A DNA stretch of 64,000 nucleotides from Escherichia coli (GTDB taxonomy: Bacteria; Pseudomonadota; Gammaproteobacteria; Enterobacterales; Enterobacteriaceae): NCBI RefSeq assembly GCF_029227855.1, contig NZ_CP074356.1; one strand, given 5' to 3'. Positions 18,594 through 23,276 of the stretch are shown piece after piece; position 1 is the stretch's first letter, and every line of letters begins with the position of its first letter. The notes beneath the pieces were generated by a model, which had not been told where the DNA came from, did not search any database, and saw nothing but the letters and a program-made list of their open reading frames with translations. The translations under genes were made by a program, and so were the position numbers.

Positions 18594-20615
18594 TTATTTC
18601 CCTCGTTTTGCCGCCATCATCGCTTTCAAATTCGCCAGATGGCTTTGCCCTTTCTGCATCCGTTCTTCGGCGCTGACCACTTTGCGCTCCTGTTCCCAAA
18701 TCAGATCATCCTGCGGCAGCTCCAGCAAAAAGCGGCTCGGCTCCGGGCGCACCAGTTCGCCATACTGACGGCGTTCTTTACACAGCGTAAAGGTCAATTC
18801 CTTCTGGGCGCGGGTAATGCCGACATAGGCCAGCCGCCGCTCCTCATCGATATTATCTTCATCGATGCTGCTCTGGTGCGGCAAAAACCCTTCTTCCATA
18901 CCGACCATGTAGACATAAGGAAACTCCAGCCCTTTCGACGCGTGGAGAGTCATCAGTTGCACCTGATCCAGCTCTTCTTCACTCTCACCACGCTCCATCA
19001 TGTCGCGCAAAGTAAAGCGCGTCACCACCTGGGTGAGCGTCATCGGCTCATCCAGTTCGCTGCCTTCCAGCATCTCCGTCATCCAGCTAAACAGTTGGTT
19101 GACGTTCTTCATGCGCATTTCGGCGGCTTTCGGGCTGGGCGATGTTTCGTACAGCCAGGATTCATAATCCATGCCGTGGATCAGATCGCGCACCGCAGCA
19201 ATCGGCTCCCGCTCCGCCAGGCGCTGGATTTCTGCCAACCAGTGAGTGAAGCGGGTCAATGCTTCATAACCACGTCCGCTAAGGGTCTGACTCAGGCCCA
19301 TATCAAAGCTGGCGGTAAACATGCTTTTATTGCGCGTCATCGCCCACTCACCCAGCTTTTTCAGCGTCGCCGGGCCAATCTCTCGCTTCGGCGTGTTAAC
19401 GATACGCAGAAATGCGCTGTCATCGTCCGGGTTAGTCAGCACACGCAGATAAGCCAGCAAATCCTTGATTTCAGGACGAGAGAAAAACGACGTACCACCA
19501 GAAATTTTGTACGGGATGCGGTTTTGCATCAGGAATTTTTCAAATACCCGCGACTGATGGTTGCCGCGATAAAGAATGGCGTAATCTTTGTACTGCGTTT
19601 TATTGACGAAGTGATGCGCAATCAGTTCACCGGTGACGCGCTCGGCTTCATGTTCCTCGTTATTCGCGCTTAAAACTTTTAGCTCTGTGCCATAACCCAG
19701 TTCGGAGAACAGACGCTTTTCAAAGACGTGCGGATTATTGGCGATCAGGATGTTCGCCGCTTTCAAAATACGTCCGGAAGAGCGGTAGTTTTGCTCAAGC
19801 TTAATCACCTTCAGCGCCGGAAAATCCTGGCTCAACAGCACCAGGTTTTGCGGACGTGCGCCGCGCCAGGAGTAGATCGACTGGTCGTCATCGCCAACTA
19901 CGGTAAAGCGCGCGCGGCTGCCCACCAGCAGTTTCACCAGTTCATACTGGCTGGTGTTGGTGTCCTGATACTCATCCACCAGCAGGTAGCGAATTTTGTT
20001 CTGCCAGCGCTCGCGGACTTCTTCATTGCGTTGCAGCAGCAACGTCGGCAATAAAATCAGATCATCGAAGTCGAGAACGTTACAGGCTTTCAGGTGTGCA
20101 TCATACAGCCCATAACAATGGGCAAAAATACGATCCCGCTCGCCCTTTGCCTCTGCCGCCGCCTGCGCCGGAGTTTTGAGATCGTTCTTCCAGTTGGAGA
20201 TGGTCGAAATTAGCTGTTGCAGGAGAACTTTGTCATCTTCAATCAGCCCCTCAGTCAGCTCTTTGAGCAACGCCAGCTGATCGGTATCGTCAAACAATGA
20301 GAAGTTCGCTTTCATCCCAAGCGCCGCATACTCACGCTTGATGATATCCAGCCCCAGCGTGTGGAAGGTGGAGATCATCAGCCCTCGCGCCTCTTTGCGA
20401 CCCAGCGTCTGCCCGACTCGCTCTTTCATCTCGCGCGCCGCCTTATTGGTAAAGGTCACCGCCGCGATATGTCGTGCCTGATAACCGCAACCGCGGATCA
20501 GATGGGCGATTTTATTGGTGATAACACGAGTTTTACCGGAACCCGCGCCCGCCAGCACCAGGCAGGGGCCGGTAACGAATTCGACAGCTTGTTGTTGGCC
20601 GGGGTTTAGACGCAT
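18594..20615 (-). CDS. rep: ATP-dependent DNA helicase Rep (SF1)
   Basis: Translation from ATG 20613-20615: [39 protein letters not shown] (673 aa), recognised as Rep. Confidence 0.96.
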
Positions 20616-20831
20616 AGGTGTATTGCTCAATCTTCGAACGGGGGGAGGATTGTAGCAGAATCGCATTTGAATGTGACCGAGTGAAAACCGCTAACCGGAT
20701 GGCTGCGGATGTTTAAATCAGAGAGGGAAGGCCGAAACCGGAGTTCATCATGAATCCATTAGACTTAGAAAATATCGGGTCGTAACGTTGTGTTATTACT
20801 TTTTCAGAGTTTACTAAGGAGAGGTTTACTC

Positions 20832-21275
20832 GTGGCGATTAATTTCAGCCCCAAGGTTGGTGAAATACTGGAATGCAACTTTGGTAACTATCCTGTTAGC
20901 CAGAATGGACAGATCAGTACGGCGTATTACGATGGCCGCATTCCACCTGAGATGATAAAAAATAGGTTGGTTGTCGTGCTCAACGGAAAAATTAATGGCA
21001 ACGCATGTATCGTCGTTCCATTATCAACCACTCGCGACCATGACAAGTTAAATCGTGGAATGCATGTTGAAATAGCCAGTAATGTTATCAATGACCTGCA
21101 ATTCTTTGATCAGCAGATACGTTGGGCTAAAGCCGACCTGGTACAACAAGTCAGTCGAAACCGATTAAACAGAGCAAGGACTTATCGGGGTATCTTAATC
21201 AATGTTTGCCACATGAGTTGGTTGCAGACATACAGAGGGCAGTCATCAAGTCAATCAATGCCATATCGCTCATAA
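20832..21275 (+). CDS. yifN: MazF/PemK-fold (toxin-like) protein; position corresponds to yifN
   Basis: 147-codon ORF from GTG 20832 preceded by SD aaggagag (20816-20823); contains GEILECNF...NRLVVVLN...CIVVPLSTT, resembling MazF/PemK motifs; start and intactness uncertain, and I recall this locus as a pseudogene in K-12. Confidence 0.55.
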   Translation: MAINFSPKVGEILECNFGNYPVSQNGQISTAYYDGRIPPEMIKNRLVVVLNGKINGNACIVVPLSTTRDHDKLNRGMHVEIASNVINDLQFFDQQIRWAKADLVQQVSRNRLNRARTYRGILINVCHMSWLQTYRGQSSSQSMPYRS

Positions 21276-21356
21276 ATTGACAATAAAATCACCATCCCCG
21301 ATAATGACTCTGTAGCCCATAGAGGCCCTAAGTTTTCTCCCCTTGAGGGACCTGCG

Positions 21357-21380
21357 AAGCCCGGATTTTCCGGGCTTTTG
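21357..21380 (+). terminator. Weak hairpin terminator downstream of the yifN-like ORF
   Basis: Stem aagcccgg/ccgggctt with a 5-nt loop, followed by tttt. Confidence 0.4.
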
Positions 21381-21408
21381 CCATATATGTCCCCCCCTCC
21401 CTGACTGA

Positions 21409-21714
<306 letters not shown>

Positions 21715-21718
21715 TAGC

Positions 21719-21743
21719 AAGGCCTTCTCCAGGAGAAGGCCTT
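21719..21743 (+). terminator. ppiC rho-independent terminator
   Basis: Hairpin aggccttctcc-agg-agaaggcct immediately after the ppiC stop, followed by a T-rich tract. Confidence 0.6.
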
Positions 21744-21752
21744 GAGTGTTTT

Positions 21753-21790
21753 CTCCCTCTCCCTGTGGGAGAGGGTCGGGGTGAGGGCAT
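21753..21790. repeat. GC-rich palindromic intergenic element between convergent ppiC and ilvC
   Basis: 9-bp inverted repeat ccctctccc-tgtg-ggagaggg followed by tcggggtgagggc; resembles a small E. coli intergenic repeat family (possibly box C-like, from memory). Confidence 0.4.
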
Positions 21791-21800
21791 CAGCGCGCAC

Positions 21801-23276
21801 TTAACCCGCAACAGCAATACGTTTCATATCTGTCATATAGCCGCGCAGTTTCTTACCTACCTGCTCAATCGCATGGCTGCGAATCGCTTCGTTCACATCA
21901 CGCAGTTGCGCGTTATCTACCGCGCCTTCCGGAATAGCTTTACCCAAGTCGCCCGGTTGCAGCTCTGCCATAAACGGTTTCAGCAACGGCACACAAGCGT
22001 AAGAGAACAGATAGTTACCGTACTCAGCGGTATCAGAGATAACCACGTTCATTTCGTACAGACGCTTACGGGCGATGGTGTTGGCAATCAGCGGCAGCTC
22101 GTGCAGTGATTCATAATATGCAGACTCTTCAATGATGCCGGAATCGACCATGGTTTCGAACGCCAGTTCAACGCCCGCTTTCACCATCGCGATCATCAGT
22201 ACGCCTTTATCGAAGTACTCCTGCTCGCCGATTTTGCCTTCATACTGCGGCGCGGTTTCAAACGCGGTTTTGCCGGTCTCTTCACGCCAGGTCAGCAGTT
22301 TCTTATCATCGTTGGCCCAGTCCGCCATCATACCGGAAGAGAATTCGCCGGAGATGATGTCGTCCATATGTTTCTGGAACAGCGGTGCCATGATCTCTTT
22401 CAGCTGTTCAGAAAGCGCATAAGCACGCAGTTTCGCCGGGTTAGAGAGACGGTCCATCATCAGGGTGATGCCGCCCTGCTTCAGCGCTTCGGTGATGGTT
22501 TCCCAACCGAACTGAATTAGTTTTTCTGCGTATGCCGGATCGGTGCCCTCTTCCACCAGCTTGTCGAAGCACAGCAGCGAGCCAGCCTGCAACATACCGC
22601 ACAGGATGGTTTGCTCACCCATCAGGTCAGATTTCACTTCCGCAACGAAGGACGATTCCAGCACGCCCGCACGGTGACCACCGGTTGCTGCCGCCCATGC
22701 TTTAGCGATCGCCATACCTTCGCCTTTCGGATCGTTTTCCGGGTGAACGGCAATCAGCGTCGGTACGCCGAATCCACGTTTGTACTCTTCACGCACTTCG
22801 GTGCCAGGGCATTTCGGCGCAACCATGACTACGGTGATATCTTTACGGATCTGCTCGCCCACTTCGACGATGTTGAAACCGTGCGAGTAACCCAGCGCCG
22901 CGCCGTCTTTCATCAGTGGCTGTACGGTGCGCACTACATCAGAGTGCTGCTTGTCCGGCGTCAGGTTAACCACCAGATCCGCCTGCGGGATCAGTTCTTC
23001 GTAAGTACCAACTTTAAAACCGTTTTCGGTCGCTTTACGCCAGGACGCGCGCTTCTCGGCAATCGCTTCTTTACGCAGAGCGTAGGAGATATCGAGACCA
23101 GAATCACGCATGTTCAGGCCCTGGTTCAGCCCCTGTGCGCCACAGCCGACGATAACCACTTTTTTATCCTGAAGGTAGCTCGCGCCGTCGGCGAATTCGT
23201 CGCGCCCCATAAAGCGACATTTGCCCAGCTGTGCCAGCTGCTGGCGCAGGTTCAGTGTATTGAAGTAGTTAGCCAT
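21801..23276 (-). CDS. ilvC: Ketol-acid reductoisomerase
   Basis: Translation from ATG 23274-23276: [35 protein letters not shown] (491 aa); the ORF track extends 50 codons upstream. Confidence 0.96.

What the first reader, a model, noticed from the sequence alone, without database searches (positions are those of the whole stretch)
20750..21380. Solitary MazF/PemK-fold ORF (yifN-like) between rep and ppiC with no partner antitoxin gene
The ORF at 20832-21275 (GTG start with a strong SD, or 20790 in the ORF track) has the N-terminal motif pattern of MazF/PemK/Kid toxins (GEILECNF, hydrophobic LVVVLN strand, IVVPLSTT). Unlike canonical type II modules, there is no upstream same-strand ORF large enough to be an antitoxin; the only candidate is an 11-codon ORF. 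The protein is about 35 residues longer than typical MazF and has its own weak terminator hairpin (21357-21380). It could be a decayed toxin, a toxin neutralised in trans, or a domesticated MazF-fold protein. I recall the K-12 counterpart being annotated as a pseudogene, so intactness here is itself worth checking.
Basis: partly seen in the sequence, partly recalled or inferred. Interest (0 to 1): 0.45.

Follow-up and report, generated by a model that had tools for sequence, protein, structure and literature searches.

The report
Frameshifted yifN, a solitary MazF-fold pseudogene
The ORF is the E. coli gene yifN, a stand-alone relative of the MazF RNA-cutting toxins, but in this genome a single missing G has shifted its reading frame, so it is an already-annotated broken copy of a conserved gene whose function is still unknown.

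Summary

One G is missing from a G5 run (21187-21190). Residues 1-120 are native. The last 27 codons are out of frame. The native C-terminus (YLNQCLPHEL...SLIN*) lies in another frame at 21191-21280. NCBI annotation of an identical genome calls it a frameshifted pseudogene.

K-12 yifN is broken by a different lesion: a missing T that stops the protein after 72 residues.

Among 5,426 complete E. coli genomes:
- 4,016 carry the locus.
- About 26% lack it.
- 1,228 carry the K-12 lesion.
- 5 carry this window's lesion.

Intact alleles are under strong purifying selection (dN/dS 0.05).

Verdict: a known pseudogene of an uncharacterised, always-solitary MazF-fold family. Low to moderate interest.

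The parts
20832..21280 (+). yifN pseudogene (PemK/MazF family), frameshifted. This is the full extent of the gene as annotated in identical genomes.
   Evidence: PGAP annotates CDS 1717-2165 of L001 (= window 20832-21280) as pseudo, 'frameshifted'. The same flag appears in 4 other genomes with this allele. MG1655 b3777 yifN is annotated as a pseudogene.
20832..21191 (+). Native-frame part, codons 1-120. It holds the beta-core and the residues E40, K43, R45 and S65.
   Evidence: Translation is identical to the intact allele of strain ZH49 through G120. Pfam matches residues 26-114.
21187..21190 (+). Frameshift site: a G4 run where intact alleles of this lineage have G5 (a 1-bp deletion).
   Evidence: Alignment A1, column 572. 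The G4 allele is in 5 genomes and the G5 allele in 540 genomes.
21192..21275 (+).
   Evidence: The same junk tail appears downstream in the K-12 translation.
21191..21280 (+). Native C-terminal coding frame (YLNQCLPHELVADIQRAVIKSINAISLIN*), now disconnected. It encodes the C-terminal helix, including invariant Q135.
   Evidence: The model places a helix at residues 128-141.
20815..20824 (+). Shine-Dalgarno sequence TAAGGAGAGG, 7-10 nt upstream of the GTG start.
   Evidence: Sequence. The SD and start position are conserved in Klebsiella michiganensis, where the start is ATG.
20751..20786 (+). 11-codon upstream ORF. Not a credible antitoxin.
   Evidence: The start codon varies (ATG, GTG, TTG), and 7 of the 10 codons after the start differ non-synonymously in Klebsiella.
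21354..21381 (+). GC-rich hairpin followed by TTTTGCC. A likely weak intrinsic terminator of yifN, or a 5'-leader structure of ppiC.
   Evidence: MFE -24.3 kcal/mol, z=-4.07, 0 of 200 shuffles fold as well. Invariant across E. coli alleles. The terminator scan did not call it because the T-run is short.
21277..21305 (+). Sigma-70-like promoter TTGACA-17-GATAAT overlapping the yifN stop and pointing towards ppiC.
   Evidence: 11 of 12 consensus matches. Function not tested.

Best explanation
Shown:
- The locus is yifN, a stand-alone gene of the PemK/MazF family, sitting divergently from rep and upstream of ppiC.
- In this genome a 1-bp deletion in a G5 homopolymer (21187-21190) shifts the frame after codon 120.
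- The product therefore keeps the beta-core but replaces the last 29 native residues with 27 unrelated ones. Those 29 residues include the conserved C-terminal helix.

Inferred:
- This product is non-functional, so the window copy is a recently made pseudogene.
- The intact 149-aa protein most likely works as a MazF-like, sequence-specific endoribonuclease. It adopts the MazF fold and keeps the equivalents of MazF E24, R29 and T52 (YifN E40, R45, S65). Together with K43, these are the only invariant positions across the wider family.
- Unlike type II toxins, it acts without a dedicated adjacent antitoxin. Its activity must then be limited by low expression, narrow substrate range, the 15-residue insertion in the loop over the active site, or a factor encoded elsewhere.
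- Strong purifying selection where the gene is intact, combined with frequent independent loss, suggests a conditionally useful accessory function rather than a selfish addiction module.

The confidence given (0.8) is for the shown part plus loss of function. The endoribonuclease mechanism of the intact protein on its own I put at about 0.45.
For: Frameshift:
- Alignment to intact alleles shows the missing G.
- The native C-terminus is recovered in the other frame.
- PGAP gives the 'frameshifted' pseudogene flag in 5 genomes with this allele.
- The same G4 allele occurs in independently sequenced isolates that are identical over 3 kb (VCSW8 from Hong Kong, A15 from Mexico). That argues against a one-off sequencing error.

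Loss of conserved residues:
- L126, V131, Q135 and A137 are invariant or nearly invariant in the family.
- The model puts a helix at residues 128-141.

Fold and active site:
- PF02452 E=1.5e-11 for the intact allele.
- AF2 model pLDDT 78, pTM 0.73.
- hhalign against E. coli MazF gives probability 94%, E=1.4e-7, with E40/R45/S65 aligned to E24/R29/T52.
- A profile hit to MazF PDB chains gives the same register.
- E40, K43, R45 and S65 are the only invariant columns among 61 diverse relatives.

Solitary status:
- No conserved neighbour in Klebsiella, Serratia, Photorhabdus, Roseateles, Pseudomonas ICE/pCAR1, E. coli IncF/X plasmids, Pasteurellaceae plasmids, or two distant relatives.

Selection and loss:
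- dN/dS = 0.05 between intact E. coli alleles, compared with rep 0.035 and ppiC 0.10.
- K-12 carries an independent lesion that truncates the protein after 72 aa.
- 1,228 genomes carry the K-12 lesion.
- About 26% of genomes lack the locus.
Against: - No experiment shows RNase activity or toxicity for any YifN protein. The family is uncharacterised, and literature searches found only incidental mentions.
- An active MazF-type RNase with no antitoxin is hard to reconcile with stable chromosomal carriage.
- The model is poorly confident (pLDDT about 50) in the 21-40 insertion, so its role is guesswork.
- G-homopolymer length errors are common in long-read assemblies. The G4 allele occurs on at least three haplotypes, which could reflect recurrent slippage or recurrent sequencing error.
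- Loss of function of the frameshifted product is inferred, not shown.
Confidence: 0.8

Rival explanations
1. The missing G is a homopolymer sequencing or assembly error, and the real organism carries an intact 149-codon yifN.
For: - The lesion is a single-base contraction of a G5 run, a typical error class.
- Only 5 of 545 genomes with this local haplotype show it.
- Those five lie on at least three different flanking haplotypes, as scattered errors would.
Against: - Three independent isolates from different laboratories and continents (VCSW8, A15, EC23-1020) share the same yifN haplotype with G4.
- Two of them are identical to the window over 3 kb, as expected for an inherited mutation.
Confidence: 0.07
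2. YifN is a canonical type II toxin whose antitoxin is supplied in trans, for example by MazE, ChpS or an unlinked orphan antitoxin. This copy decayed after that protection was lost.
For: - The Pfam family and fold are those of type II toxins.
- Catalytic equivalents are kept.
- Recurrent inactivation in E. coli and Shigella is what one expects of a dangerous gene.
Against: - The gene is solitary in every context examined, including unrelated hosts that lack mazEF synteny and small plasmids.
- Conservation of 45-70% identity across beta- and gammaproteobacteria and dN/dS 0.05 are atypical of fast-evolving TA toxins.
- Identity to MazF is only about 14-20%, so cross-binding of MazE is unlikely.
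Confidence: 0.1
3. The family is a domesticated, non-toxic MazF-fold protein, such as an RNA or DNA binder, or a processing factor with one specific substrate. On this reading 'toxin' is a misnomer.
For: - Always solitary.
- Housekeeping-like purifying selection.
- Tight sequence conservation.
- Conserved rep-yifN-ppiC synteny in Klebsiella.
- Dispensable in many lineages without an obvious antitoxin problem.
Against: - The residues equivalent to the MazF catalytic Arg and Thr, plus E24, are exactly the invariant ones. That argues for retained chemistry rather than mere binding.
- Presence on plasmids, ICEs and in a PHROG family suggests a role linked to mobile elements.
Confidence: 0.2
4. It is a type III toxin (ToxN/CptN-like) controlled by an RNA antitoxin encoded upstream.
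For: - They have a similar length of about 150-170 aa.
Against: - No tandem or direct repeats lie upstream in the window or in six homologous loci.
- No Rfam match.
- In Pasteurellaceae plasmids the gene starts 3 nt after the preceding gene, which leaves no room for a repeat array.
Confidence: 0.02

Closest known systems
E. coli K-12 yifN (b3777), annotated pseudogene 'PemK toxin family'
   Same: - It is the orthologous locus between rep and ppiC, about 96% identical in DNA.
- It is also a frameshifted pseudogene.
   Different: - The lesion is different and independent. K-12 lacks a T in codon 70 and terminates after 72 residues. The window lacks a G in codon 119/120 and keeps 120 native residues.
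- The window also lacks a 44-nt segment upstream of ppiC.
MazF / ChpAK of E. coli and other MazF/Kid/PemK endoribonucleases (PF02452)
   Same: - The Pfam model is matched end to end in the intact allele.
- E24/R29/T52 equivalents are conserved.
- There is a C-terminal helix.
   Different: - No mazE/pemI-like gene is adjacent.
- About 38 residues longer, mainly from a 15-residue insertion between strand 1 and the PEMxKxR motif and a longer region before the C-terminal helix.
- Only about 14-20% identity.
- Far more conserved between genera than typical TA toxins.
MazF-mx of Myxococcus xanthus (a solitary MazF regulated by the transcription factor MrpC; from my own knowledge, not checked here)
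   Same: A MazF-family gene with no co-transcribed antitoxin, integrated into host physiology.
   Different: - No evidence here for any protein partner.
- YifN forms its own distinct subfamily: about 30 clusters at 50% identity with E<1e-30.
CptN/ToxN/AbiQ type III toxins
   Same: - MazF-related fold.
- Similar size.
   Different: - No upstream repeat-RNA antitoxin.
- Weaker structural similarity than to MazF.

Membership tests
PemK/MazF toxin superfamily (Pfam PF02452) | Sequence match to the family HMM above the curated cut-off | tested here: met
   The window ORF scores 38.8 bits (E=1.2e-9) and intact alleles score 42.7-44.9 bits, against a cut-off of 23.1. The intact allele covers profile positions 3-108 of 109. 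The window copy covers only 3-88 because of the frameshift.
PemK/MazF toxin superfamily (Pfam PF02452) | MazF/Kid/CcdB SH3-like barrel fold with a C-terminal helix | tested here: met
   [not shown]
PemK/MazF toxin superfamily (Pfam PF02452) | Catalytic Arg and Thr/Ser (E. coli MazF R29, T52) plus the loop Glu (E24) | tested here: met
   hhalign (probability 94%) and an HMM alignment to PDB MazF chains place R45, S65 and E40 on R29, T52 and E24. These residues are invariant in 61 relatives. The catalytic roles of the MazF residues are from my own knowledge of the literature.
PemK/MazF toxin superfamily (Pfam PF02452) | Endoribonuclease activity and growth inhibition | not testable with these tools
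   No experimental report was found for any YifN protein.
Canonical type II toxin-antitoxin module (mazEF/pemIK-like) | Adjacent, co-oriented small antitoxin gene in the same operon | tested here: not met
   The window has only non-conserved 11- and 32-codon ORFs in the 216-nt spacer. No conserved small neighbour was found in about a dozen homologous contexts.
Type III toxin-antitoxin system (ToxIN/CptIN) | Tandem-repeat RNA antitoxin upstream of the toxin gene | tested here: not met
   No tandem or direct repeats in the window or in six homologous loci. No Rfam hit.
Intact, functional yifN allele | Uninterrupted 149-codon frame colinear with the family | tested here: not met
   A 1-bp deletion lies at 21187-21190. 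PGAP flags the gene as 'frameshifted'.
YifN orthologue group (COG 'YifN, PemK superfamily') | Orthology by synteny (rep-yifN-ppiC) and high identity | tested here: met
   100% to 95.6% DNA identity to the locus in 4,016 E. coli genomes. The same synteny is seen in Klebsiella michiganensis. JGI names relatives 'YifN (PemK superfamily)'.

The most novel reading that the evidence does not exclude
YifN proteins form a distinct, antitoxin-independent branch of the MazF family. They would be active RNases with a conserved E-K-R-S site and a family-specific loop insertion. They are kept under strong purifying selection on chromosomes, ICEs and plasmids, in some small plasmids directly coupled to the replication/primase gene. 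Their role would be conditional, for example in plasmid establishment, inter-element conflict or a specific RNA-processing step. Lineages such as K-12, B2 strains and this one lose them repeatedly.
Probability: 0.25. Interest if true: 0.55.

Novelty: already known. Interest (0 to 1): 0.25.

Why it matters
For this window it matters little. The gene is a known, annotated pseudogene, and the apparent intact ORF is an artefact of a frameshift that nearly preserves length.

The useful result is a caution. An ORF of the right length can still be broken, and only comparison with intact alleles shows it.

The wider family poses a modest open question. YifN keeps the MazF active-site residues, has no antitoxin gene in any context examined here, and evolves as slowly as rep in strains where it is intact. 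Yet it has been lost many times. Both standard laboratory lineages (K-12 and B) appear to carry the broken allele. That may be why the family was never studied.

Tried and rejected
- Type III RNA antitoxin: repeat scans of the window and of six homologous loci found nothing. Rfam found only two chance-level hits.
- Upstream peptide antitoxin: the 11-codon and 32-codon ORFs are not conserved in Klebsiella.
- N-terminal extension from the GTG at 20790: the frame is broken by a 1-nt indel in Klebsiella, so 20832 is the real start. A ribosome-profiling preprint did report an upstream initiation signal in E. coli.
- Direct sequence search of PDB with the single protein or the narrow family profile found no MazF. 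hhalign of the narrow profile gave only a 25-column match, and MAFFT/hmmsearch in Python misaligned the Arg region. The broader 61-sequence profile resolved this.
- Defence-system membership: no PADLOC hit.
- Phage genomes: no tblastn hit in INPHARED, although PHROG 15698 (unknown function) matches strongly.
- NCBIfam: no specific model.
- AFDB Foldseek library: unavailable.
- Literature: 'yifN' returns only incidental mentions. Searches for solitary or orphan MazF/PemK found nothing on this family.
- Programmed frameshifting to rescue the frame: considered and rejected on sequence grounds. There is no slippery heptamer and no long A/T run. This is inference only.

Full report
**1. What is in the sequence.**

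The region lies between rep (minus strand, start codon ending at 20615) and ppiC (21433-21714). An ORF starts at a GTG at 20832, preceded by TAAGGAGAGG, and ends at 21273-21275. An alternative in-frame GTG lies at 20790. NCBI annotation of matching genomes uses 20832 as the start. Klebsiella michiganensis has an ATG at exactly that position, while the upstream extension is out of frame there. A ribosome-profiling preprint reports initiation signals at both the annotated and an upstream start of yifN in E. coli (10.1101/520783).

**2. The ORF is frameshifted.**

A megablast of 20616-21432 finds the locus in 4,016 of 5,426 complete E. coli genomes. In every listed row the annotated feature is 'type II toxin-antitoxin system PemK/MazF family toxin'. 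The 100%-identical genome (strain VCSW8) annotates it as a pseudogene, 'frameshifted', spanning window 20832-21280. The 99.8%-identical strain ZH49 has an intact 149-codon CDS, WP_000996704.1.

The alignment shows the single difference that matters. The window has GGGG where ZH49 has GGGGG, at 21187-21190. Residues 1-120 are native. The native C-terminus YLNQCLPHELVADIQRAVIKSINAISLIN* is encoded in another frame at 21191-21280. The two stops are 5 nt apart, so the broken ORF (147 aa) mimics the intact length (149 aa).

**3. The K-12 lesion is different.**

The K-12 lineage (J53, and MG1655 b3777 'pseudogene yifN') lacks a T in codon 70. It terminates after 72 residues, ending ...STTRDQTS*. PMC4340650 also calls yifN a pseudogene.

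**4. Population picture in E. coli.**

Short allele-specific queries give these counts:
- The window's G4 allele is in 5 genomes.
- The G5 allele is in 540 genomes.
- The K-12 delta-T allele is in 1,228 genomes.

All five G4 genomes carry the 'frameshifted' flag. They fall on at least three haplotypes. VCSW8 and A15 are identical to the window over 3 kb. EC23-1020 shares the yifN haplotype. MRY15-131 and E686 differ at more than 100 sites, including sites inside yifN. The G-run contraction is therefore inherited in the window's lineage and has probably recurred elsewhere. Homopolymer sequencing error cannot be fully excluded for the other haplotypes.

About 26% of genomes have no yifN at all. 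In these, an unrelated 86-nt spacer joins rep to ppiC. Database proteins from E. coli and Shigella include several further truncated or fused forms, such as P0018, P0019, P0023, P0024, P0028, P0048, P0053 and P0066. These suggest additional independent lesions, although some may be assembly errors.

**5. Where intact, the gene is under purifying selection.**

Two intact alleles from divergent lineages (ZH49 and 2013C-4991) differ by 15 synonymous and 3 non-synonymous changes. That gives dN/dS = 0.05, comparable to rep (0.035) and ppiC (0.10) in the same pair. All three replacements lie in the variable loop, residues 28-34.

**6. Family.**

Homologues of about 150 aa occur in these groups:
- Enterobacterales: Klebsiella, Serratia, Photorhabdus, Xenorhabdus and Winslowiella.
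- Other proteobacteria: Pseudomonas, Aeromonas, Shewanella and betaproteobacteria.

They are 45-87% identical to the E. coli protein, and JGI names them 'YifN (PemK superfamily)'. An exhaustive profile search finds only about 30 clusters (at 50% identity) with E<1e-30, 130 with E<1e-10 and 514 with E<1e-3. YifN is therefore a small, tight subfamily grading into the wider MazF family.

Seventeen positions are invariant among 43 members: P7, G10, C15, G18, P39, E40, K43, R45, N51, P63, S65, K100, V107, S108, R111, L112 and Q135. L126, V131 and A137 are nearly invariant. The window's frameshift removes the last group together with Q135.

**7. Fold and active site.**

- Pfam PF02452 is matched above threshold. 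NCBIfam has no specific model.
- An AlphaFold2 model of the intact allele has pLDDT 78 and pTM 0.73. It is low only in residues 21-40.
- A broader 61-sequence alignment leaves only E40, K43, R45 and S65 invariant.
- Its profile aligns to E. coli MazF with 94% probability (E=1.4e-7). The register is PPE40MIKNR45LVVVLN...VVPLS65 against GSE24QAGHR29PAVVLS...CVPCT52.
- The PDB hits to E. coli and S. aureus MazF give the same register.

R29 and T52 are the catalytic residues of E. coli MazF, and E24 is a known activity determinant. This rests on my own knowledge of the MazF literature. The extra length of YifN comes mainly from a 15-residue insertion between strand 1 and this motif.

**8. No antitoxin.**

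In the window the 216-nt spacer to rep holds only an 11-codon ORF and a mechanical 32-codon ORF. Neither is conserved as coding sequence in Klebsiella. There are no repeats or Rfam families that would indicate an RNA antitoxin.

In other organisms the neighbours are unrelated to one another:

| Context | Neighbourhood of the yifN homologue |
|---|---|
| Klebsiella | rep and ppiC |
| Serratia | A lipoprotein gene and a MerR/TipA gene |
| Photorhabdus | mutS |
| Roseateles | A WYL regulator |
| Pseudomonas ICEs and plasmid pCAR1 | A long same-strand array of small unknown ORFs, with an N6-methylase and a phosphatase |
| E. coli IncF/IncX plasmids | IS91 copies |
| Small Pasteurellaceae plasmids | The gene starts 3 nt after the primase/replication gene |
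| Two more distant relatives | Long empty upstream spacers |

Being solitary is thus a property of the family.

**9. Interpretation.**

What is shown: a frameshifted copy of a conserved, solitary MazF-fold gene.

What is inferred: the copy is dead, because it loses the conserved C-terminal helix. The intact protein is probably an active MazF-type endoribonuclease that is controlled in some way other than by a linked antitoxin.

Section 5 shows strong constraint on intact alleles. Sections 3 and 4 show repeated loss: the K-12-type deletion in 1,228 genomes, absence in about a quarter of genomes, this G-run lesion, and the Shigella variants. Together these fit a conditionally useful accessory gene. 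No PADLOC model matches. One PHROG of unknown function matches strongly, but no sequenced phage in INPHARED carries the gene.

**10. Verdict.**

- The implied intactness is wrong.
- The locus is already annotated as a frameshifted PemK/MazF pseudogene, so novelty is nil for the window itself.
- The residual interest is the uncharacterised YifN family.

Noticed in passing
window 21277-21393: A near-consensus sigma-70 promoter (TTGACA-17-GATAAT, 11 of 12) overlaps the yifN stop codon. It is followed about 50 nt later by a very stable conserved hairpin (21347-21393; inner stem 21354-21381, -24.3 kcal/mol). This could be the ppiC promoter plus a leader or attenuator, or a short (about 70-nt) unannotated RNA. 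Rfam has nothing here.
   Followed up: partly
window 21395-21415 vs L003/L004 columns 802-845 of alignment A1: Upstream of ppiC the window lineage lacks a 44-nt segment that K-12 and O157-type alleles have. In those alleles the segment is bounded by a direct repeat, CTGACAATT, which suggests deletion by repeat slippage. A C-run next to it (21389-21397) also varies in length between strains.
   Followed up: no
L017 801-886 (strain CU39ES-1) vs window 20616-21432: About 26% of E. coli genomes have an unrelated 86-nt rep-ppiC spacer in place of the roughly 820-nt yifN cassette. The flanks diverge right up to the rep and ppiC start codons. This looks like an old presence/absence polymorphism rather than a recent clean deletion. 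In these strains the ppiC promoter must lie elsewhere.
   Followed up: partly
L016 2611-3348 (NZ_CP116409.1, strain HH97): In this RefSeq 'complete' genome the yifN region is replaced by about 740 nt of G-rich nonsense (GGGGAGGGGTGGAGGGGGGG...), with only faint protein similarity left. It looks like a local base-calling or assembly artefact.
   Followed up: no
L014 520-2357 (Glaesserella parasuis plasmid p1613) and other Pasteurellaceae plasmids: In small (6-15 kb) mobilizable plasmids, a YifN homologue (about 37% identical) starts 3 nt after the primase-C-terminal-domain replication gene. This suggests translational coupling with the plasmid replication protein.
   Followed up: no
L015 (pCAR1 81041-91487) and L005-L008: The Pseudomonas yifN homologue (60% identical) sits in a long unidirectional array of small hypothetical genes. 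The array also holds an orphan N6-DNA methylase, a GNAT acetyltransferase and Ser/Thr and dual-specificity phosphatases, next to an integrase. This organisation is reminiscent of plasmid or ICE leading/early regions.
   Followed up: no
window 21751-21796: A 46-nt GC-rich palindromic element (TTCTCCCTCTCCCTGTGGGAGAGGGTCGGGGTGAGGGCATCAGCGC) lies between ppiC and ilvC. It is present in the window lineage but absent from strains MRY15-131, E686 and ZH49. It is probably a small repetitive extragenic element indel.
   Followed up: no
window 19666-22711 vs other E. coli: The window's haplotype is rare: only 9 of 5,435 records are at least 99% identical over the rep/ppiC flanks. It is also unusually divergent from the majority, with dS about 0.15-0.17 in rep and yifN. 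The source strain therefore belongs to a minority lineage of E. coli.
   Followed up: no
PLSDB record NZ_CP134663.1 (H41): A 4.9-Mb record in the plasmid collection carries chromosomal yifN. It is evidently a chromosome mislabelled as a plasmid.
   Followed up: no
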